Part shown: in pieces, positions 1,947-57,580 of the stretch
Position numbering within the stretch: the stretch's first letter is position 1
Layout of the letters: each line of letters opens with the position of its first letter
Assembly (NCBI GenBank): GCA_951406725.2
Contig: OX597815.1
Location: forward strand, 177,816,001 to 177,880,000
Direction of reading: 5' to 3'
Source of the DNA: Octopus vulgaris
Taxonomy: Eukaryota
DNA length: 64,000 bases
The notes under the pieces: model-generated
What the model was told of the DNA's origin: nothing
The model's input: the letters and a program-made list of their open reading frames with translations, nothing else
Databases searched by the model: none
Made by a program: the position numbers and the translations under genes

Positions 1947-3143
1947 CTAAGGCCGTGATGGATATGTCGTTTGTTGTAGACGCGTTCAAAAGGGATCTGT
2001 ATTTTGTAATAAAGAGAGTCTTTTTACTAATTCTAATTTGTTGGCTCCAGGTTGCATCGTGCCTGAATTGGTAGAGGAGAAAACTTCTGAAGCTTAGATT
2101 TTTGTTATTGGCGCAAATGTCTATGTGTTGGCTGAATGCTATTTTTTCTGTTTTTGGGAATTTTGATCTGGAATCTGTGCAGAGCCATTCTTTACGTAGA
2201 CTGTTTTTTGTTTGGCCTATGTATTGCTCTTGAGCAGGTTAGTGCGTATATCAGGTTCTCCGAAGCGCATATGAAGCTGCTTTTCACTGTGAAACGTTGT
2301 CCCTATTTGAAGGAGAACCCTGATCCCTCAATTAAATTGACGCATATCCCACAGTTGGGTCTTCCACATTTTCTTACTGACGGCGTCTGTGTTGTTGAGC
2401 ATATTCGGGCTTGTGTTAGGTGACTTTTCATAGATTTGAACTGTCTCTTGCTTTTTATGATGGTGTGTGTTTGGAGGATTAAATTCATTCCATGGTCCCT
2501 TTTTAGTAGGGGAATATTTTGGAGGATGGTGTAGAAGGCTTCATTGTTAAGAGGGTTGTGTTTGGAAATGTATGGTAGGGCTCTTGGTTATAAATCCTTT
2601 ATTTTGGGATGTCTGACTTCCTGGATGTTGAGTTGAAGGGTACGTTGAAAGCATATGTCCATTAGTGAAGATGGGTAGTTCCTGGTGATGAGTGTATCCT
2701 TTAGTTAATGTAGTTGTGTGTCCCTGGTGCTTGTATTAGTAACTATAATACAAATCCTTTTTCCTAGGTCGAAGGGGATATTCATTCTCGTGTGTCTGGG
2801 GTGGCGTGATTTGAACGGTAGATATTGTTTGGAGTCCGTGGGTTTATAGTATATATCTGTTTCTATTACGTTATTATATTTCTTAATGAGGATGTCGAGG
2901 AAGGGAAATTGTTGCTGGCTATATTCCATCGTGAATTGAATGTTTACGTCAAGTTCATTTATAAGTGCTTTGATTTTTTTAAGTCTCTCTATACATTCAT
3001 ACCAAAGGATGAAACACTCATTCAGGTATCTCTTCCAGTTATTTTCTATGTAGAGGAATAATAGAACATTACGATAAAGACAAATGTCTAGATATCCCAT
3101 GACTATGTTAACAAAGGAGGAGGCCATTCTCGTACCACGGACC
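1947..3143 (-). pseudogene. Penelope-like retroelement, 5'-truncated and degenerate: RT C-terminus, linker and GIY-YIG endonuclease
   Basis: ORF 2705-3199 has GTRMAS..N..MG, WKRYLNE (RYxDD), IQFTME, FPFLDI, DIYYKPTDSKQYL..S.HP. ORF 2303-2488 has the CGRPNCGIC linker, followed by NLIYALTC. The C-terminus is ..FITKY...LN. Stops and frameshifts are present. Confidence 0.9.
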
Positions 3144-3436
3144 ACACACAAAAACACAAACACATGTATATACACACATAGAGACGTACACAGACACACA
3201 CACTCACACTATTCTGATCTCTAAGACCAGTACCAAAAACCACTGAACCATGAAAGACTAATCATGAAAGAGAAACAAAAAATCCTTTCAATTCCACTTT
3301 GCTCTTCCTTCCCCCCACGCCAACTAACCTCCCACACTGTCCCTTAAAATAGCAACTTGTAGCTTCACACAAAATATAAAATGCTAAAACAGGTCAGTTC
3401 ATCTCAAATTATTTGTAAACTCCTAAATACATCTCC

Positions 3437-8181: not shown

Positions 8182-8243
<62 letters not shown>

Positions 8244-8354
8244 CCTGAGAGTAAATAACAGTAGCATTCGACTGCCACGTACTGTTGGCAAATAATCGTT
8301 ACTCTAGATTGCTGTTACTGAATGATTTACAAGTAGAACTTTTCTATTATATTC

Positions 8355-8389
<35 letters not shown>

Positions 8390-11473: not shown

Positions 11474-11699
11474 GGGGTTGTGTGTATGTGTGTGTATGTA
11501 TGTATATTATTCAAGTGTTTACAAATAACACGGAAAAAATAAATTAACAGCTACCAGGGTAGCAAAAATTCACACAAATATCAAGGATATAACAGCTTAT
11601 TTATAAAGGTGGAAACTCTAGGTTTAGGTGAAATGTTTTGTATAATTTAGATAAATAAATAAATGGGGCTAAACGCAGCTGTTATTCAAATTCTTTTAC

Positions 11700-11785
11700 T
11701 TCCGACATATGTTTCAAAGACAACATTGGTATTATTCCAGAAGGATTAAAATGGCGTAAAACAATGCAATCTTCTCATCAGGGAA
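11700..11785 (-). ncRNA. Type I hammerhead motif with long helix II
   Basis: Reverse complement: ttcc-CTGATGA-gaagattgcattg...caatgttgtcttt-GAAA-catatg-TC-ggaa (GUC triplet). Confidence 0.8.
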
Positions 11786-12295
11786 AGAAAGAAACCAAAC
11801 ACATCAATAAGACATTTTATCAGAATGTGAACGTGATGAAGGGTACGCCATCATGCATTATATTTTTTTTAACTATTACTAGATATAACGTCAAAGTTGG
11901 TTTATAGAAAGAGAATTAGAAGAAGGAAAGAAATTAGCAGAAAACTAATAGCGGAGAGTTATAGAGCGATGGGTGAATTAGAATATACCTTTAGTTCCTA
12001 TAAGTGATTTCTACCATTCCATAAAATTGGACCTTTGACTGTCCTCTTACATTGCACTTCCACTAAATATATCTACTTCCATGTCTTTAAGCTTTATTCC
12101 TATTCACCCATCGCTCTCTATCTCTCCATTATTTGTTTTCTGCTAATTTCTTTCTTTCTTCTCCTTCTCTTTCTATAAACTACTTTTGACGTTGTATCTA
12201 CTAACGGTTTAAAAAAATTGATAGCGTTAACTTCATTATATACGCAGTCATGATGTTTTGTTAACATGTTTTATTGATGTGTTTGGTTTCTTTCT

Positions 12296-12381
12296 TTCCC
12301 TGATGAGAAGATTACATTGTTTTACACCCTTTTATTCTTTCTGGAATAATATCAATGTTGTCTTTGAAACAAACGTCGGAA
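12296..12381 (+). ncRNA. Type I hammerhead motif, mirror copy with altered helix III
   Basis: ttcc-CTGATGA-gaagat...gtcttt-GAAA-caaacg-TC-ggaa. Confidence 0.65.
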
Positions 12382-12782
12382 GTAAAAGAATTTGAATAAC
12401 ATATGCATTTAACTCCATATATATATATATATAATTTCAACAATTGAGGGTAAAATTAATTAATTAATTATTAATCAATTTCACCAAGTGTTCAGTATGT
12501 AAAGGGACCATTTAAGGCGAATTCAAATTACTACATTATATAAAAGGGCTTAGTAAAATAAATTACTTTGCCACATACTGAACTCATTAGAAATAGCAGC
12601 TAAAAGAGCATAGTGTTTACTGATTTTAACCCACGCTGGTGGAAAGGGGAGAGCAGAAATTCTTCGCTTGCATATTTTAGGTGTGCTGGCACTGTTAGTT
12701 TCGAGCAGATCTTCAGAAGCGATAAGAAGCCGAAAGGGTATGCTCCCACTTTCAGTGTTTTCAAATCCAAACCAAGGAGTTC

Positions 12783-12835
12783 TGAGCTGATGATAGAAAT
12801 GTCGAGTTTGACTAATCTTGAAACGTACGTTCTCA
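12783..12835 (+). ncRNA. Type I hammerhead motif (copy 1)
   Basis: tgag-CTGATGA-tagaaatgtcgagtttgactaatctt-GAAA-cgtacg-TT-ctca, with palindromic helix III ACGTACGT. Confidence 0.7.
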
Positions 12836-13345
12836 AATAACCTTTGCATTTGATTTTTTAATGTCTTTACCCCCATACTTTCGTGAGTTGAATTGAGCAA
12901 GCACTATATGAGAGAGATTTTCTTTAAGTATTAGAAATAGTTTTTAAAAAGTTTTTTTAGCTGCTATTTCTAATGAGTTCAGTATGTGGCAAAGTAATTT
13001 ATTTTACTAAGCCCTTTTATATAATGTAATAATTTGAATTCGCCTTAAATGGTCCCTTTACATACTGAACACTTGGTGAAATTGATTAATAATTAATTAA
13101 TTAATTTTACCCTCAATTGTTGAAATTATAATTCATCTCTCTCTATTTAATGTTTCGGATTTACCGAAAGAGCATAGTGTTTACTGATTTTAACCCACGC
13201 TGGTGGAAAGGGAGAGCAGAAATTCTTCGCTTGCATATTTTGGGTGTGCTGGCACTGTTAGTTTCGAGCAGATCTTCAGAAGCGATAAGAAGCCGAAAGG
13301 GTATGCTCCCACTTTCAGTGTTTTCAAATCCAAACCAAGGAGTTC

Positions 13346-13398
13346 TGAGCTGATGATAGAAATGTCGAGTTTGACTAATCTTGAAACGTACGTTCTCA
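13346..13398 (+). ncRNA. Type I hammerhead motif (copy 2)
   Basis: Identical to 12783-12835. Confidence 0.7.
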
Positions 13399-13580
13399 AA
13401 TAACCTTTGCATTTGATTTTTTAATGTCTTTACCCCCATACTTTCGTGAGTTGAATTGAGCAAGCACTATATGAGAGAGATTTTCTTTAAGTATTAGAAA
13501 TAGTTTTAAAAAAGTTTTTTTAGCTGCTATTTCTAATGAGTTCAGTATGTGGCAAAGTAATTTATTTTACTAAGCCCTTT

Positions 13581-13700
<120 letters not shown>

Positions 13701-16147: not shown

Positions 16148-16532
16148 TGCTAGAACATAAAAGAAACCAGGAAAGAACAATAGACTCAGCTGGACGTAAG
16201 CAGTGAATTTATTAAATTGTTTCCCAACGAAAGTTTTTGATAGGGAAATTGTAATACAAAATGACATTTCGAGCGTTCAAAAACCACATTATCTCCATCT
16301 TGCGGTCAGTTATTTCGCCATGTAACGACAAACGTACTTTTCCCTGAACTATCTGCTCCTTCCTTTTTCTCCTCTTCTCTGGATCCGTCAAAGCGCCACA
16401 CTCGAAATGCCATTTTCTACTACCATTTTCCCATCTAAAACTTACCTTTTAATATATTCACTGTTAAATTTAATATATTCCCTGCTTACGTCCAGCTGAG
16501 TCTATTGTTTTTTTCCTGGTTTATGTTCTAGC
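16148..16532. repeat. Degenerate inverted repeat, arms ~16148-16275 and ~16400-16532
   Basis: tgctagaacataaa..caatagactcagctggacgtaagcag versus ctgcttacgtccagctgagtctattg..tttatgttctagca. Confidence 0.8.
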
Positions 16533-16613
16533 ATTTGCCTACGTATACATATGCAAATACACACACATACACGCACACACATACACACACATACACATAC
16601 ATACATACACACA

Positions 16614-17868: not shown

Positions 17869-18094
17869 TATATATATACGTCTAATATAGGATAAATGTT
17901 TTCGAAACAAAAAATATCAATGACCAGCATATTAAAAAATACCTTTAAAAGTTAAATTTATAAACAAGGGCAAAAAAAAAGAATTCTAATACCAAATATG
18001 CCGAAAATAGACAAATTGTCCATAACCATATAATTTATCACTACTAACATGCGCCCAGAAGTAAGCTGACAGAAATTTCTAAAAAGTTCCGTTA

Positions 18095-18155
18095 TTATCG
18101 TATTGGTCCCAATTTCAGAGTTAATTCATAAGAATTTTCTCCTCGTCAGCGATAA
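18095..18155 (-). ncRNA. Type I hammerhead motif, intact
   Basis: Reverse complement: ttatcg-CTGACGA-ggag.aattc(ttat)gaatt.ctct-GAAA-ttgggaccaa-TA-cgataa. Confidence 0.85.
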
Positions 18156-18268
18156 ATGCGTAAGACATAAATGAAATACTTACTCATACCCATGGAAAAA
18201 GCAAGCAATGACTGAGTGCTTGCTTTTTCCATGGGTATGAGTAAGTATTTGATTTATGTCTTCCGTGT

Positions 18269-18329
18269 TTATTGCTGACGAGGAGAAAATTCTTAAGAAT
18301 TAACTCTGAAATTGGAACCAAAAGGATAA
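18269..18329 (+). ncRNA. Hammerhead mirror copy with damaged cleavage site
   Basis: ttattg-CTGACGA-...-GAAA-ttggaaccaa-AA-ggataa; U16.1 is lost. Confidence 0.55.
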
Positions 18330-19014
18330 TAACGGAACTTTTAGAAATTTATGTCGGCTTACTTCGAGACGCATGTTAGTAGTGATAAATTATATGGTTA
18401 TTGACAATTTGTCTATTTTCGGCATATTTGGCATTAGAATTCTTTTCTTTTGCCCTTGTTTATAAGTTGTATGTATATATATGTATGCATGCGTACATGT
18501 ATGTATGTGCGTGTGTATGCTTGCGTGCGCGCGCATTTTACGTATACCTGTATAAGTGTGTGTGTGTGTCTTACTATCAATGTTCGTATCTGAGTCCACA
18601 ATTGACACACTCCTACAGAAAAGGATAAATTCACCTTGAAATTCTATACCATATTAAAATACATATATTGTGTGTACTATTCCAATTTTACCATTATATT
18701 TTAGACGAATTTCCCGTTTGTTTCTTTTTCGTTTTATTTCAGTTCTCTGTTTACACATGATGGAACAGAAACACTGAATTCCTAACTTGATTATATGCTT
18801 AATGTCTGTAAACGTGATTATTTTAAGCTCGTATTGTCGCTTTTACGCAAGTTTTCATATATTGTCACATCGATCAACGTTAATCGGCCACCTTCTTAAT
18901 TTCTTTCTATTCTCTAGCTGACAGGCATTGCTTAAAGCTTCTAATTGCGAAAGACATTTTGTAACGCCGAATACTGCGTTCGCAATAGTCAATTGTCATT
19001 AATGATTAGAAAAT

Positions 19015-25966: not shown

Positions 25967-26049
25967 GAGACTGAAGCACAGGCAGAATCAACGTACTATT
26001 AAAATCATAGATGATGATACGAACCCATTTTTGTTAAAATACATTTATC

Positions 26050-26220
26050 TTCTGTTGTGTCTGGGGAGAGTCATTTTCTTTTTGTGCCTTATAATGTAAA
26101 ATTTCCACACATTTCTTATTTTTATTTTCCTAAAATGTTCGTTGCGTCTTGTAACCTTTTCAATAGTTTTGACTCTTATAAGGCACAAAAGGAAATGACT
26201 CTCCCCAGACACAACATAAT
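26050..26220. repeat. Inverted repeat with ~48-bp arms and ~75-bp spacer
   Basis: gttgtgtctggggagagtcattt..tttgtgccttataa / ttataaggcacaaaa..aaatgactctccccagacacaac. The spacer resembles 28460-28510. Confidence 0.85.
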
Positions 26221-26619
26221 ATGCTTCAGCACACGGACTCATATAAGGAATCTTGCAAAACAAATCCAAAAAGGAAACATTTATCTTCGCTGTGAAACTA
26301 GATCCCGTGGGCTCGCCATTGGAATATGAACAGCCACAGAAAAAAAAGTCTAATCGATTTGTAGATCTCCAACACAATGAACTTCAACGAACTTATTTTC
26401 TCATGAAACATTGTAGAAACTGATTCTGAAGCTAGATACCATCGTCTATAAAACTGGTTGTGATATGCTTCTAGTACTTTAAAATAAATCACATAAAAAC
26501 GTCAAATTTTAACTTTCATATCAAGTTCTATTAAAGTCTGTTTTCGAAAATTTGTGTCCATGTCTATTCTCAAGATCATAAGCATTGAATAATTAAAGTA
26601 ATTATTAACGATGAACGGG

Positions 26620-27045: not shown

Positions 27046-27120
27046 CCCCATACAATTGTTTCACTGTTAATAAATTATGCAATTTTACTTACACAATTCA
27101 TCTGCTGATCATCAGTGAAG
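27046..27120 (-). ncRNA. Type I hammerhead motif; truncated mirror copy at 27273-27320 (+)
   Basis: Reverse complement: cttca-CTGATGA-...-GAAA-caattg-TA-tgggg. The mirror arm has cccca-CTGATGA-actg, restoring perfect helix I and II pairing. Confidence 0.75.
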
Positions 27121-27363
27121 TCCGTCATATAAAGATATAATTTGCCGAACTCCACGCCAGATATGGACACGAGGTCGAAAATACGTGTAGTTCGGCCATT
27201 TACATCCACGGTTATATTCAAACGTCCTCGTTCCAGCGTGGAGTTCGACAAATTATATCTTTATATGACGGACCCCACTGATGAACTGCAGATGAATTGT
27301 GTAAAAAGCTGCGTAACCATACTTACCATACTTACATTTCCTTTTGACTATTATTTTTATGAC

Positions 27364-27414
<51 letters not shown>

Positions 27415-27424
<10 letters not shown>

Positions 27425-27778
27425 TAAATTAGAGACAAAACCACTGTTATGCAAATCAAACAAAGGAAGACTTAAGCCAATACATAAAATAATTTATATA
27501 AATTAAAATTTAACATATGAATAACCACTACGATCGTTTCGTGTCAGCACACCTTAGACATTCTTCAGGTGGTTTCTTAGCGAGTTTTAATCTAGATTAA
27601 AACTCGCTAAGAAGGTTTTGAAACCACCTGAATGTCTAAGATGTGCTGACACGAAACGATCGTAGTGGTTATTCATATGTTAAATTTTAATTTATATAAA
27701 TTATTTTATGTATTGGCTTAAGTCTTTCTTTCTTTGATTTGCATAATAGTGGTTTTGTATCTAATTTAATATAATATA
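27415..27778. mobile_element. Fold-back element centred on a perfect 40-bp palindrome (27574-27613), in (TA)n
   Basis: The arms are reverse complements; centre ttcttagcgagttttaatct|agattaaaactcgctaagaa. Confidence 0.92.
27523..27574 (-). ncRNA. Type I hammerhead motif, intact; mirror copy 27622-27670 has a 3-nt core deletion
   Basis: Reverse complement: aaccac-CTGAAGA-atgtc...gacac-GAAA-cgatcg-TA-gtggtt. Confidence 0.88.
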
Positions 27779-27852
27779 ATATTTTACTATAAAATTGGAT
27801 TCAATCTTAAATCTGATTTTTCCTTGTAAATTTGGATTTATTCCCTAATATT

Positions 27853-28644: not shown

Positions 28645-29909
28645 CGAGGGGCGTTCAATAAGTAATGCCGCTAACCCACTTGCAGTTGTTTGATCTAGCT
28701 GAATTTTGCATGTGCACTTATTTATACCTCTATAGGTTAAGTGGCGAATTACAGCTCTGAACTAATTGTGGTTTCTGATTTACAGGTGTTTGAACTGAGT
28801 CAAGTGTGAACTGAGTCAAGAGCCTGTTGAGTGTCGAGCAGTGATCTGGTTTTTGTATTTGAAAGGACGCACACCACGGGAGACTTTTGATGAAATGAAA
28901 GTAACTTATGGTGATGATGCCCCATCATATGACCTTGTAAAACGCTGGCATTGTGAATTCAAACATAGTCGGAACTCTGTGGAAACAGCTCCCAGATCTG
29001 GTCGCCCCCTTCTGCCGTTGATGAGACGTCTGTCCGTCAAGTTGAGGCTGCCATTTTGGAAGGTCAACGCATAACTATTCGCCAAATAGCCCATAAGGTC
29101 AAGATTAGTACCGGGTCTGTGTAAACTATCATTCATGACCATTTGCATATGCAAAAGGTGTCTGCCAGATGGATTTCCAGGTTGCTCACACCTTTCCAGA
29201 AGCAAGAACGCGTTGAGTGCTCGAGGATGAATTTGGAGATGTGCCAAGAAGATGAGCCAACATTTTTCAAAAGACTGATCACACAGGATAAAACCTGGGT
29301 CCATCACTATGATCCATAGACCAAAACCCAGTCAATGCAGTGAAAGCACCGTGACTCACCTCCTCCAAAGAAGGCAAGGGTGCAGCCCTCCGCTGACAAG
29401 GTTATGCTCACAGTCTTCTGGGACCAGGACGGAGTAGTGATGACAAATTTCCTGGAAAAGGGTACCACAATTACAGGAGCCTATTATGCTTCACTTTTGA
29501 GGAAATTAAGAGAAGCTATCAAAATCAAGAGGCGGGACAAGATCAGCAAAGGCATCCTCCTCCTGCAGGAACGCTCCGGTCCACAACTCGCGTGTCGCCA
29601 GATCAGAAGCACGGGCGTGCAGCTATGAACTCCTCCCCCTTGCACCCTCTGATTTTCACCTCTTCCCAGCCATGAAGTTGATTTTGAAAGGAAAGCGTTT
29701 CCCAGATGATGCAGCCTTGATTTCTGAAGTCACGTCGTGGTTGGAGGACCAAGCTGGGGTCTTCTACAAAAACGGTCTCCAGAGCTGTATCAAACGATGC
29801 ATAACTCTGGGTAGTTCCTATGTAGGAAAAGACTAATAACTGTGCCAAGTGTCGTTGCTCTACTGCTATGGGAAGTGGGTCAGGGGCATTACTTATTGAA
29901 CACCCCTAG
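28645..29909 (+). mobile_element. Full-length mariner (DD34D-type) transposon with TA TSD
   Basis: TIRs cgaggggcgttcaataagtaatgcc / ggcattacttattgaacacccctag, each flanked by TA; ~1.27 kb. Confidence 0.93.
28820..29836 (+). pseudogene. Mariner transposase pseudogene
   Basis: HTH region (VKRWHCEFK..APRSGRP), ITQDKTWVHHYD, KVMLTVFWD, APSDFHLF; frameshifts and stops. Confidence 0.9.
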
Positions 29910-51345: not shown

Positions 51346-52585
51346 GTGTCTGTATGTATGATGTATGTATGTATGTGTGGAGCGGTGGGATATATGTGAT
51401 TTAAATGAATGTCTCAAGTATACATATTCACATTAAGTGTAACAAGCTATATTATTCGAAACAAAATATCTGTCTTACTGTACGAAGTGTTAATTATTTG
51501 TTTACATGGTAGTACATGAAACCTGAATTTGAATTCACAAAGCAAGATTTATTTAAGATAAATCATTATATAATTTTTTTTAATTATATTTCGAAAACTG
51601 TAAGAATATCAGGTATATAAAATCACCAGAACATTGTTTATTACTAATTTACATTTAATGCGTCAAAGATCATTAAATATTAGCACGAATTGACGCCGCA
51701 TTCATAATTAGTCATGAAGGAATTAATCAGAATCGATAAACGAAAAACATATTTGATTAATTTTAAAATCGTATAAAAATTAATGACATAGAATAATGGA
51801 AGGAAGTGCAACTTTGCAGTTAATTTTTTTTTATTGTAATAGGTAAAAATTGTTGCTTTTTTCATAAAATTTTAATAATATCCTGGGAAAATTGCTCGAT
51901 ATATGTTCCTATTTCTTCATTAACATTATTATTCATATCATTCCAAAATATTAGAGTAGAAAAGAAAGTAGCTGTGGGATAAAATACCTGACCGGTATTC
52001 AATATCTAAGATTTTGAAAAGAATTCATGTACAAGGTGGATTCATTTTCATGTTTGCCAACAGAATAAAGGACACTGCAGCATCTTAATAAATGGACCAA
52101 AACCAATCGTGTATTACTTCTCAGAAGACAGAATGTCGGGGCATTTGTAAAATGTATATAGACAGTAATGGATAATAGAAAATCTAGTGTCCCTCGTCTT
52201 CCAGTGTTACAGACATCTTTTAATAATAAAGTAGATTTGCTTCACTTGTTTTCCAATAATCCTGTCTCCGATTCATCTCATCATGCTATTTCAGTTTTTT
52301 TTTCTTTCTGCTCGATATAATGTTCCTATATCTCACTTACGCAGAATTCCTAAGTCAGTTGGTAATATAATTTCTCTGAGTGGACACTTAAGCAGTTTCT
52401 AATCTCCATAATGTTGCTTTTGCTGTCTAAACACTTCAACAAATGCTTAGAGGTGTCTTCGTTTTCAAGCAACCGAAATTTACCTCTGTTGTTCTTCTTT
52501 TCAAAACTCTGTTGAATGTTTTGGTTCACGTAAATATCGACCGGTCAAATTTGTTCCACTACATTTTAAATAATCGGAATGTTGG

Positions 52586-52953
52586 AGTAAAGATTGTTTG
52601 CCAATATGACATGGCAGTCCTGGCTTAAGACGAATGTTGCTGTAATTTGACCCCAAGAACATCGTCTCCAGCTGGCTATATGACACAATCTGTGTCCTTA
52701 TATTTTCAAACAAGGGAATGTAGTACCCCCATTCAGCTCAAAACAATATCTGTGTATCGCGATTTCCAGGTAATTTCCCTTCATCAGCACAGATATTGTT
52801 TTGAACTGAGTGGGGGTGCTAGATTCCCTTGTTCGAAAATATAAGGACACATGTGTCGTATAGCCAGCTGGAGACATGTCTCGTGAGGCTAAATTACAGC
52901 AATATTCGTCCTAAACCAGGACTGCCATGTTATGTTAGCAAATAATCTTTACT
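52586..52953. mobile_element. Hairpin element with ~165-bp inverted arms (52586-52754 and 52788-52953)
   Basis: The arms are reverse complements with scattered substitutions. Confidence 0.92.
52741..52801 (-). ncRNA. Hammerhead ribozyme forming the apex of the long hairpin
   Basis: Reverse complement: aatatctgtg-CTGATGA-agg(gaaatta)cctg-GAAA-tcgcga-TA-cacagatatt. The 33-nt spacer is exactly the catalytic core plus helices II and III. Confidence 0.85.
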
Positions 52954-54995
52954 ACACAGTATTGTTGCTGAATATCTCAGGTTGTGAGGTTTAAAATAGT
53001 AATTTTCGAATCAGATCTTGTCGTACACCTCATTCACTGGCATGATTTCTGACAACTAGTACCATTTTCATAATTCATTCTACCAGTGGTGTTCGAACTG
53101 TGATAAGTACACGATTCTATAAGGCATTAGATGATTATCCGAAGGTAAGAATTATTGCCCTTGCATCGAAAGAATTGTGATTAGTTAAGAACTGTTGCTA
53201 TTATCATATATGTGTTTTCCATGCTGGTCTCCTCCAAACGCTTCAGTAATATTGTAAACTTGTGCTATTCTTGGAACCCTTGACTCTTTTGTAGAAAAAC
53301 CAAACATTAAAATTATTTGAAATAACCAACACTTTTCTACTTATTTCACCTCCGAATAACACCTTGTTTTACTTTGCCCTCTTTGCTCTCTGATTTGTTT
53401 CGTCGTTTCAATTGGTACCTTCTCTTAAGCTTGTCTCTTTATTCCTTGTATTTGGTGATGCCAAAACTAAGCTTTTTTTCATTATTTGAACTTTCATATT
53501 CTTATTCCAAGAATAAATTGTCAAGCTTTACTATTTCACTTAGTGTCCAGTTGAGAATATAATAGCTATAATTCAATTTCTTTCAAGTTCTTTTACCATA
53601 TCCAGAATCTCCACCATTTGTGTTGTTAGCTTTTGTACTCTTTGGCTAATTTTATGTATCCTAGTGTTCTCACGTAAGATATCTTTCTGAGATTGGGTGT
53701 TTTCTTTATACTATGGGTTAGATAAATTTTGTAGTCATAAACTTGCAATTTATAATCATGTCGTAGATGCGCGATACATTCTTGTATTCGTAGCAAATAT
53801 AATCAAAATCGAGTTTAGATGTAGAGATTATGTTTCATTTCGCTTTATCTAGTCTTCCTAATCACCTTCGCATCATGTTAGGAATATTACAAGCTATAAA
53901 TTAAAACCTCAATGTCTATTACGTTAGGTGTTCGTTTGTCTGTGCCACAAATATATTAATCTAATGCGTTTGTGATAATCATTCCTAACCCTAGATGTCA
54001 TTCGCGTCACATACACTGTATATGGTCTACCAATTTCTAAGTAAAACACAAATCTCTCTTTAGTACAATTCCCTTTTATATGATATGGTAGAGACATAGT
54101 TAATGATCTTCCCATTAACAATGTGACTTGATGATTTCCATCAAATCAGAGTTTATATTACTTCCGCTAATGAATCCTTGTAACAGAGTTTCAAGTTTCT
54201 GTTGATCTGTAATACGCAAGTTGAGGGCATTGATAAATAAAACACGATAGCATGAACTTGCATACAATCTTTTATATGACTGCCTGATTCGATATAACCT
54301 ACCGGCAACAATTGAGAGAAGGAAGTTCCACAAAATATTCTTCTTCTAGTAGAGTAAAAGACTAATTTTTTATAATTTGATCTATATCTGTAGCTGCAGA
54401 AATGTTTGTCTTTTAATACCTCGTTTTATAAACCTAATTATAACTGGCGCTGTCTTACTTTAGCAAATGTTGTTAGGAGACAACGGTGAGCCAGTTTGTT
54501 GAAAAGGTTCTGCTCATTAATCAACGTCATCATCAGAACTATAATTCTCCTATCATTTTAAGTCTTTATTGATCAGTAATTGATTTTACAGTCATAAGGT
54601 CCTTGGCTTCTGCGGGTATTTAATTTTATATTCCAGGTAAACATTAATCATCCGCGATGTTATTACAGTTATGGATTTTACTGTCTTTTCATATTTTGGT
54701 GGTTGGCAGTTTCGTTCTTCTTTGCGACTAAGATAATCTTTATTGCAGTGAGCCAGACTGTTTATCACAAGAATGGTTTTGCAGCTATACACACGCCTCT
54801 TCTGCCACCACACTGCCCCTCTTACAGACTATTACGAATGTCGATTTCCTGGTATATCTGTTTGGTTAGTGACAAAATCAGCGTCTTGTAACACGTAACG
54901 TCATGGTATTGTAGGCGTTGATAGGTATTTGTTTTTAAGATTGATCGTCAGTTTTTGCTTACTCGCAAACATACATCCACCCAGCCACTCACACA

Positions 54996-56200: not shown

Positions 56201-56553
56201 TACACAGTCAATCGTTGTTGTTATATATATATATATATGTGTGTTATTGTTGCATTTCTAAAAAAGCTATATATTTAGCGCCTAAAGTTGATGCAAATTG
56301 TTGTCAGCAGACAGTTTAGATTAATGGTAAAGTATTCAGCCGCTCTCTGGGATGCGGATTTGAGTCCCGTGGCTGTTTGTTGGCAACTTGTTCACGGCTT
56401 GCAAGAGCGATAATACCCAATTTTCTGCTGTTTTGCATGGCGATGCTGCGATCCAAATATTACTCTCTTATCTGTGTAATATGATACACATTCGATGCTT
56501 CTAAAAAACCAAAATTACGTTTGTTTATGAATAAGTTGTTGTTAAATATATGC

Positions 56554-56598
<45 letters not shown>

Positions 56599-56607
56599 GT
56601 GTGTGTG

Positions 56608-56642
<35 letters not shown>

Positions 56643-56654
56643 GTGTCTGTCTGT

Positions 56655-57580
56655 CTGTCTGTTTGAACTGGGAAATCCCAGAGGATTTTGCTAGTCTCCG
56701 ACCCGGCCCTTCTCTGCGGATTGCGCTCATAACACGTCGCGCCTCTCTCTAGACCCCCCTTTTCGCACAGTTTCCTATGTAGCACTTTCGATATCTCTTC
56801 GAGTCGCCACAGCTTGTAGTTATTTTGGGCAAGTCTAGGGCATTCGTTCGCGATATGGGCAATGGTTTCATCCACTCTATTGCAGATGCAGCACAGCGGA
56901 GACACTTGTTCATTCCTATGGTTGAATCCCCCGTTAGTGCCCAAAGCTGGGTCTTGCGCTGCCAATATATTTTAAGGGTTCCTTTCATCAGCCAATCCCA
57001 CCTATTTTTTATAGCAACTTCGGTTGGGGCTTCATGGAATTCATTGTGTTGTCCCTTTTTGCGTAATCTGCATGTCCTTTTTGTACTGCTTCCTTTGTTT
57101 TCCTTTTTTCCTTTCCTCTCAATATTCGTTCCTCACTGTCACTAGCAAAGTTTCCTTACTTTGGTCTAGGTATCTCATGAAGCTCTCGGGTTCGATACGT
57201 ACGAAGTCTTCCACACCTATCAGTCCCCTTCCTCCATTTGCACTCTTCAGGTATAGGCGAGCCGAGTCTGCGCGTGCATAATGGGCTCCAAGCATCGTTA
57301 GGAGCTTTCTTGCCTTCTTGTCCATCTCCTTTAGCTGCTTCTTTCTCCACCTCAGGATTCCAGCGCCATACCGAACTACCGTGACTGGGCGCGAGTGTAT
57401 TGTCGAAATCATGTTTCTGGTATTCAGTTTTGAAGCCAATATTTTCTTACTCGCCGCAGGAACTCCCTTTTTGTCTTGCCTTTCATGTAGTGGTGTTTGG
57501 TTCCATTTGCCTCAATGATTCCATGATATCTAAAGCTGGATTGAGATTGAACTGCCTTCATCATTTCACCGCTTGGTAAC
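56655..57580 (-). pseudogene. R4/Dong-clade non-LTR retrotransposon fragment (RT thumb, CCHC knuckle, start of RLE)
   Basis: YGAGILRW..L..MDKKARKLLTM.GAH...RLYL....GGRGL; AAQD.AL.T; CCIC...ETIAHIANEC; KILWDF..QTD. Confidence 0.88.

What the first reader, a model, noticed from the sequence alone, without database searches (positions are those of the whole stretch)
52586..52953. Hammerhead sitting exactly at the apex of a ~165-bp hairpin
Seen: unlike the other fold-backs, which carry one HHR per arm, this element has a single HHR whose helix I is the whole inverted repeat. The 33-nt spacer is precisely CUGAUGA-helix II-GAAA-UCGCGA-UA on the minus strand, and the element is not in a (TA)n tract. 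Inference: self-cleavage would open the loop and leave a long dsRNA (a potential Dicer or ADAR substrate), or this is a rod-like, viroid-like or MITE-like unit with a ribozyme cap. Many arm differences are transitions, which could remain G-U pairs.
Basis: partly seen in the sequence, partly recalled or inferred. Interest (0 to 1): 0.82.

Follow-up and report, generated by a model that had tools for sequence, protein, structure and literature searches.

The report
Back-to-back repeat joined at its ribozyme
This is one old, decaying copy of a very abundant animal repeat in which two back-to-back pieces meet exactly at a hammerhead-ribozyme motif, likely a by-product of how Penelope-type jumping genes insert rather than a purpose-built hairpin RNA, and self-cutting is untested and predicted to be weak.

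Summary
Observation confirmed: arms 52583-52754 and 52788-52956 (150 matches, 18 mismatches, 5 gap columns) close a 33-nt minus-strand type I hammerhead core; cut site 52755/52754. Public contigs show a high-copy family whose ordinary form has a short helix I (6 bp, internal loop, 7 bp) and different upstream sequence, so the long arm is an inverted second copy of the downstream part, joined inside the 6-bp helix (52788-52793). That arm alone runs about 54 nt further (to 53007), the one-sided tail typical of Penelope-like insertions. The layout recurs: 6 of 32 listed contig pieces span it, 18 show the ordinary form; an earlier AI note of this scan (e1-9506604) reports it on other DNA of this genome. 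No sign of RNA-level selection: G-U versus A-C mismatches 7:8, arms as diverged as neutral flanks. Here the hairpin erases loop 1, G10.1-C11.1 has become G-U, and helix III is a palindrome that would need a partner, so cleavage is predicted weak. Verdict: a variant of the known inverted-pLTR layout. The viroid, MITE and Dicer/ADAR readings are unsupported. Its value is as a test of whether ribozyme cleavage sets Penelope inversion junctions.

The parts
52583..52754 (-). Direct copy: family sequence downstream of the ribozyme cut, ending at the near 3' end (52586, or 52583)
   Evidence: arm; pieces start at 52586/52587, loose end before 52582 in 26 contigs of X11; depth rises from the 52540-52583 bin
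52755..52787 (-). Type I hammerhead core: C3-A9 at 52787-52781, extra A 52780, helix II 52779-52777 with 52770-52768, extra G 52767, GAAA 52766-52763, palindromic helix III 52763-52756, A17 at 52755; predicted cut 52755/52754
   Evidence: Read from the sequence; family letters table 3
52788..52793 (.). Junction zone: 6 nt that are both the 5' strand of the ribozyme's inner helix I and the first 6 nt of the inverted copy (microhomology)
   Evidence: Loose ends behind 52793 in 40, 31, 33 contigs (X6, X9, X11) and 31, 34, 3, 4 contigs (X2, X11, X15, X17): ordinary copies leave the window sequence here
52788..52956 (+). Inverted copy of the downstream part, beginning at or within 6 nt of the cut site, without a core; passes the near end at 52953/52956
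   Evidence: loose ends behind 52953 in 69, 94, 55, 65 contigs (4 of 4 runs) and behind 52956 in 33 (X1)
52954..53008 (+). One-sided tail of about 54 nt, ending at the family's far 3' end (53007/53008)
   Evidence: Loose ends behind 53007 in 45, 61, 40 contigs (X1, X6, X11 in the rows shown); summed depth stays high through the 52980-53023 bin; diverged relative at about 8243-8356 covers the same tail
52572..52582 (+). Candidate left copy of a degenerate 10-11 bp target-site duplication (inconclusive)
   Evidence: Only 4 nt match exactly in the window; 7 nt with the G at 53013 seen in X9 and X11
53009..53018 (+). Candidate right copy of the degenerate target-site duplication (inconclusive)

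Best explanation
This is a 425-bp copy of a high-copy hammerhead-bearing repeat in which a core-bearing piece and an inverted core-less piece meet inside the ribozyme's 6-bp helix I, likely because two reverse transcripts made by a Penelope-type enzyme were joined there; cleavage in this copy is untested and predicted to be weak. Steps. (1) Shown: the ordinary family member reads upstream sequence, short helix I, core, about 170 nt to a near end and about 54 nt more to a far end. (2) Inferred from the Anolis enzyme (PMC11167929): the enzyme nicks and extends both target strands and starts at two RNA sites, near and far. (3) Inferred: the near-start cDNA ran through the core into the 5' strand of helix I; the far-start cDNA stopped at, or switched template just below, the cut site. 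Because the two strands of helix I are complementary, the 3' ends of these two cDNAs are complementary too and would anneal, closing the insertion. (4) Shown: the result is a hairpin with one core at the tip and the tail on the core-less arm. (5) Shown or inferred: the insertion is older than the split of the sampled organisms, and each arm has since gathered its own substitutions and indels. Whether real cleavage fixed the end of the second cDNA, or complementarity alone did, is open (about 40:60).
For: Short native helix I and different upstream sequence: loose ends behind 52793 in 3 of 4 runs as shown and 4 of 4; 18 of 32 listed pieces cross the core and stop at 52790-52794. Two 3' ends, 52953/6 and 53007, with the tail on one arm only. 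Head-to-head inverted 5'-truncated copy plus optional tail is the Penelope layout (PMC8557442 passages; PMC3846280 passages, which also report palindromes and overlaps at inverted junctions and 8-10 bp TSDs). Tail = distance between two RT start sites, both strands extended (PMC11167929). Age: flank-anchored contigs of organisms C, D and E enter the element (records 9, 16, 17, 24, 25, 32). Decay: arm-arm 18 of 168 versus 72 of 974 in the two flank-anchored contigs of organism E (Fisher p = 0.16); arm-specific indels against the family near 52658, 52850-52852 and 52875 (table 4); G-U:A-C 7:8. Weak ribozyme: loop 1 absent here, and loop-1-less hammerheads fade at low magnesium (PMC3064770 passages); 52768 is C11.1 in 71% (X2) and 83% (X11) of depth but U here; monomer fold -2.2 versus -9.7 kcal/mol for a competing fold, helix III pair probability 0.0, palindrome dimer -10.1; AUA was the slowest of four triplets in PMC1636495 (abstract).
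Against: No link to a Penelope RT/GIY-YIG ORF was shown: no genome was held and 0 of 10 window ORF pieces had a Pfam hit. The tail (54 nt) is longer than the 30-40 nt in the papers. The TSD is inconclusive. 6 of 32 listed pieces span the apex, 3 of them in runs guessed to be RNA, so the hairpin form may also have been amplified as a unit; I could not tell independent origin from copying. The core of this copy keeps every catalytic residue and both CpG pairs of helix III, where 9-16% of family depth in X2 differs at each of 52758-52761. ViennaRNA does not model the hammerhead core, so the energy gap overstates the case. In the other fold-backs of the window the junction is not at a ribozyme.
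Confidence: 0.68

Rival explanations
1. The hairpin is a subfamily that moves as a unit: it arose once and was then copied as an arm-ribozyme-arm RNA or as a MITE-like DNA.
Against: 18 of 32 pieces and the largest loose-end groups show the ordinary short helix; the unit is asymmetric; no core on the plus strand; a cut at the tip would split the template in two.
Confidence: 0.13
2. Snap-back self-priming: a single cDNA (or antisense template) folded back on helix I and copied itself.
For: Helix I is a ready-made priming stem; PMC3846280 argues for self-priming from palindromes at inverted junctions. This was my first reading.
Against: The inverted arm is about 54 nt longer than the core-bearing arm, so it cannot have been copied from it, unless the left end was trimmed afterwards to exactly the family's near end.
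Confidence: 0.12
3. The host keeps this locus as a self-opening double-stranded RNA for Dicer or ADAR.
For: Very stable fold; the insertion is shared by several organisms; apex-spanning pieces of other copies occur in runs guessed to be RNA.
Against: No strand bias in G-U pairs, equal folding on both strands, neutral-level arm divergence, 5 gap columns, loss of loop 1 and of the G-C pair at the base of helix II.
Confidence: 0.04
4. The second arm arose after insertion by a local template switch during DNA replication or repair at the short helix I palindrome.
For: Short inverted repeats are known seeds of such events (own knowledge, not from a call).
Against: The tail 52954-53007 is family sequence with no template on the left side; both outer ends coincide with family ends; the layout recurs.
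Confidence: 0.03

Closest known systems
Endonuclease-positive Penelope-like elements with an inverted 5'-truncated pLTR (Adineta Pen2a/Pen2/Pen3a, PMC3846280; general layout in PMC8557442; Poseidon_Ac, PMC11167929)
   Same: Head-to-head inverted copy, one-sided 3' tail, hammerhead about 170-220 nt upstream of the 3' ends, overlap or palindrome at the junction, possible 10-bp TSD.
   Different: No ORF in this copy; tail 54 nt; the junction lies in the ribozyme's helix I, at its cut site, which the passages I read do not describe.
Metazoan type I hammerheads and non-LTR retrozymes (PMC4209133; PMC7229834; bioRxiv 10.64898/2026.07.22.740005)
   Same: Type I core, 6-bp helix I with an internal loop in the ordinary family form, short palindromic helix III predicted to work as a dimer, extra base after A9, non-coding, high copy.
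   Different: No tandem unit at this locus; helix II has only 3 bp with an extra base on both sides; here helix I is a continuous duplex of about 170 bp without loop 1.
MITEs and fold-back DNA elements
   Same: Short, non-coding, long inverted arms, defined outer ends.
   Different: Arms are 3' parts of a retro-type unit, most copies are not inverted, one end carries a tail.
Hammerhead viroids and satellite RNAs (for example eggplant latent viroid, PMC1636495, abstract)
   Same: Rod-like fold, hammerhead, AUA triplet.
   Different: Chromosomal, shared by related organisms, core on one strand only, no sign of a circular monomer.

Membership tests
Type I hammerhead (metazoan) | Conserved core C3-A9, G12-A15.1, U16.1, H17 | tested here: met
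   no family difference of 10% or more at these places
Type I hammerhead (metazoan) | Helix II closed by G10.1-C11.1 | tested here: not met
   G-U in this copy; C in 71-83% of family depth; an extra base lies on each side; helix II pair probability 0.36
Type I hammerhead (metazoan) | Short palindromic helix III | tested here: met
   8-nt palindrome, dimer -10.1 kcal/mol, monomer pair probability 0.0
Type I hammerhead (metazoan) | Loop 1 available for the loop 1-loop 2 contact | tested here: not met
   22 continuous pairs here; ordinary copies have 6 bp, a 3x1 loop and 7 bp, read by eye from the loose-end consensus
Type I hammerhead (metazoan) | Self-cleavage | not testable with these tools
   Needs an in vitro assay; only contigs, no raw RNA reads, were listed
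Penelope-like insertion | Inverted 5'-truncated copy joined head to head | tested here: met
Penelope-like insertion | 3' tail on one end only | tested here: met
   Ends at 52953/6 and 53007; 54 nt versus 30-40 nt in print
Penelope-like insertion | Target-site duplication of about 8-10 bp (optional) | tested here: inconclusive
   4 nt exact in the window, 7 nt with the allele of organisms D and E
Penelope-like insertion | Sequence is the pLTR of, or is moved by, an RT-GIY-YIG element | not testable with these tools
   No genome held; 0 of 10 ORF pieces with a Pfam hit
Non-LTR retrozyme | Tandem units each with a hammerhead | tested here: inconclusive
   None at this locus; other copies could not be read whole
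Non-LTR retrozyme | Circular RNA | not testable with these tools
   Contigs only
MITE | Most copies are full units bounded by symmetric terminal inverted repeats | tested here: not met
   18 of 32 listed pieces ordinary versus 6 apex-spanning; one-sided tail
Hammerhead viroid-like RNA | Hammerheads in both polarities of a circular RNA | tested here: not met
   One core only in 52583-53008; chromosomal in several organisms
Known miRNA precursor | Rfam gathering score | tested here: not met
   11 matches, all below gathering, generic hairpin matches

The most novel reading that the evidence does not exclude
The hammerhead is the part that builds Penelope inversions: cleavage makes the RNA 5' end at which one cDNA runs off, and helix I is a built-in splint that pairs it with the second cDNA. 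Apex hairpins would then be a genomic record of cleavage in the animal and would give the Penelope hammerhead a role in integration; copies joined in the outer part of helix I would keep loop 1 and be active ribozymes capping a 170-bp duplex.
Probability: 0.28. Interest if true: 0.66.

Novelty: new variant of a known kind. Interest (0 to 1): 0.38.

Why it matters
How Penelope-like elements form their inverted ends, and what their hammerhead is for, are open: PMC8557442 calls its function unclear, and PMC11167929 found it dispensable for insertion in vitro and saw no RNA ends at the cut. A recurrent junction inside helix I makes this countable in a genome: junctions piled at the cut site would point to cleavage, junctions spread over both parts of helix I to plain complementarity. 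This single copy is probably a fossil without a role. Such insertions also add long potential duplexes to the genome, but every fold-back of this type does that.

Tried and rejected
No whole genome was held, so no genome-wide BLAST. Window self-search found one diverged relative, at 8270-8323, of the 3' end only. An 18-nt core pattern in metagenome contigs gave 21 loci; 0 of 21 align beyond 38 nt and none has the core in register, so they are chance. Rfam: 0 at gathering; 11 sub-threshold hairpin matches. Pfam: 0 of 10 ORF pieces. Sequence look-ups in the scan's notes found nothing (one search gave one unrelated note). No RNA holder listed; X15 and X17 are RNA only by guess and contigs give no strand or level, so expression is unknown. 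'Opposite strand' joints were dropped as evidence because a read can switch between the two arms; one of them (52747 to 52793, X1, 2 contigs) would fit a junction in the outer part of helix I but is ambiguous. Summed depth was not used as copy number. Compensatory changes cannot be seen by comparing the two arms alone, so that test was not done (my note 1 says 'no compensatory'; that is wrong). The 40-bp-arm rows contain non-standard pairs and were ignored. The 18-nt motif is absent from the one supplement file of PMC8557442 that was searched. Snap-back was my first reading and was lowered because of the tail.

Full report
What is there. The inverted repeat is real: arms 52583-52754 and 52788-52956, 150 complementary columns, 18 mismatches, 5 gap columns, spacer 33 nt. 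Both strands fold far better than shuffles (z -26.0 and -31.2). The minus-strand spacer is a type I hammerhead core with the predicted cut between 52755 and 52754. Such cores with six or more flanking pairs occur 4 times in the window against 0.01 in shuffles. Rfam does not detect it.

The family. No genome was held, so I used public contigs. Of 24 runs listed, 20 hold the stretch or part of it, under five organism codes. Laying four of them at 80% likeness placed 7064, 6322, 3539 and 4659 contigs, with flat single-contig depth in the flanks and a sharp rise only between about 52580 and 53010. Loose ends (24 of 1219 rows shown) mark two 3' ends: 52953 (4 of 4 runs; 52956 in X1) and 53007 (3 of 4 runs in the rows shown). 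The left arm stops at the near end, the right arm goes on to the far end. A diverged relative at about 8243-8356 has the same tail.

The ordinary form has a short helix I. Many contigs follow the window through the core to 52793 and then leave it for one shared sequence (40, 31, 33 contigs; 31, 34, 3, 4). Read by eye, that sequence gives a helix I of 6 bp, a 3x1 internal loop and 7 bp, the layout that PMC4209133 (parts 1-2 of 4 read) calls canonical for animals. So the right arm is not native: it is an inverted second copy of the downstream part, and the junction lies in 52788-52793, at or within 6 nt of the cut site.

The apex layout recurs but is not the rule. Of 32 pieces shown (of 2884, the longest favoured), 18 cross the core and stop at 52790-52794, 6 span core and at least 31 nt of right arm (X11 record 8, X15 13, X17 18 and 20, X2 25 and 26; three of them with 7-19 gap positions), and 8 say nothing. 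The six differ from the window at 6-20 letters, so most are other loci; the one from organism E could be the orthologue. This is no frequency: long pieces are favoured and near-perfect hairpins collapse in such contigs.

Age and decay. Contigs anchored in unique flank enter the element in organisms C, D and E. The arms differ at 18 of 168 columns, the two flank-anchored contigs of E differ from the window at 72 of 974 (Fisher p = 0.16). Each arm has its own indels against the family. Transitions dominate (15 of 18) but split 7 G-U to 8 A-C on the ribozyme strand. A 10-11 bp TSD is possible but inconclusive.

The ribozyme in this copy. All catalytic residues are present, and none varies by 10% or more in the family, which may reflect selection or only shared descent. 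Against activity here: loop 1 is replaced by continuous duplex, and hammerheads without it fade at low magnesium (PMC3064770, passages); C11.1 of the family is U here; helix III is an 8-nt palindrome that needs a partner (dimer model in PMC4209133 and PMC7229834, passages); a competing fold buries the core; AUA was the slowest triplet tested in PMC1636495 (abstract only). All of this is prediction.

Mechanism. An inverted 5'-truncated copy with a one-sided tail is the Penelope layout (PMC8557442, passages; PMC3846280, passages). The Anolis enzyme extends both target strands and starts at two RNA sites that bound the tail; its hammerhead cut only with protein present and was not needed for insertion (PMC11167929, parts 1-2 of 4). 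I infer two cDNAs, one from each start, whose 3' ends were complementary because they ended in opposite strands of helix I. Simple snap-back from the core-bearing copy fails because the other arm is longer. I saw the two-cDNA reading first in an earlier AI note (e1-9506604) and then checked it against the tail position and junction here. Whether cleavage fixed the junction is open: the rows shown give no pile of copies beginning at the cut, and one ambiguous joint fits the outer helix instead.

Literature. Searches: Penelope+hammerhead+inverted+pLTR, 5 papers; octopus+hammerhead ribozyme+Penelope, 2; Penelope+twin priming+inverted, 2, off topic by listing; hammerhead+helix I+inverted repeat+dsRNA+retrotransposon+genome, 1 review, listing only; Penelope+head-to-head+palindrome+hammerhead, 0. 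In the passages read I found no description of a junction inside helix I. The 2026 retrozyme preprint (part 1 of 5 and passages) ties animal retrozymes to pLTRs; the 2026 octopus repeat annotation has no mention of hammerhead or ribozyme in its main text (its supplement was listed, not read). Subscription papers, Repbase, the supplements of PMC4209133 and of the preprint were not seen and may hold this family or this layout.

Verdict. A real and recurrent variant of a known insertion layout; this copy is most likely a neutral fossil. Interest 0.38; the bolder reading, that the ribozyme builds the inversion, has probability about 0.28.

Noticed in passing
window 12430-13591: Young textbook Penelope-type insertion: 176-bp inverted copy (99%) plus 426-bp partial tandem (99%), with hammerhead-like cores at 12787 and 13350 on the plus strand, ending in a TA tract.
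   Followed up: partly
window 17955-18468 and 27410-27782: Two more head-to-head fold-backs with 9-nt and 6-nt spacers. The first has a core in each arm (18149 minus, 18275 plus); in the second only the minus core at 27568 is whole, the other has lost 3 nt.
   Followed up: partly
window 11638-12443, 27089-27304, 16148-16533, 26047-26222: Further, older or shorter fold-backs; the first two carry CUGAUGA in each arm without a clear rest of the core.
   Followed up: no
window 28227 (minus): A lone C3-G8 core with 6-bp helix I and long helices II and III.
   Followed up: no
window 8243-8356: Diverged 3' fragment related to the element, including the tail, wedged between a GT and a TA tract.
   Followed up: partly
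window 2705-3208 (minus): 167-aa frame that looks by recall like the C-terminal part of a Penelope-type reverse transcriptase; no Pfam hit at E 0.01.
   Followed up: partly
window 56525-57511 (minus) and 29510-29836 (plus): Frames that look by recall like a decayed LINE reverse-transcriptase end and a mariner transposase end; one of these frames (57119-57511) was scanned and had no Pfam hit.
   Followed up: no
table 5c, run X15, 52793 to 52739: One contig links 36 nt of native upstream sequence back to the arm, which may be a very short tandem or an inversion just upstream of the ribozyme.
   Followed up: no
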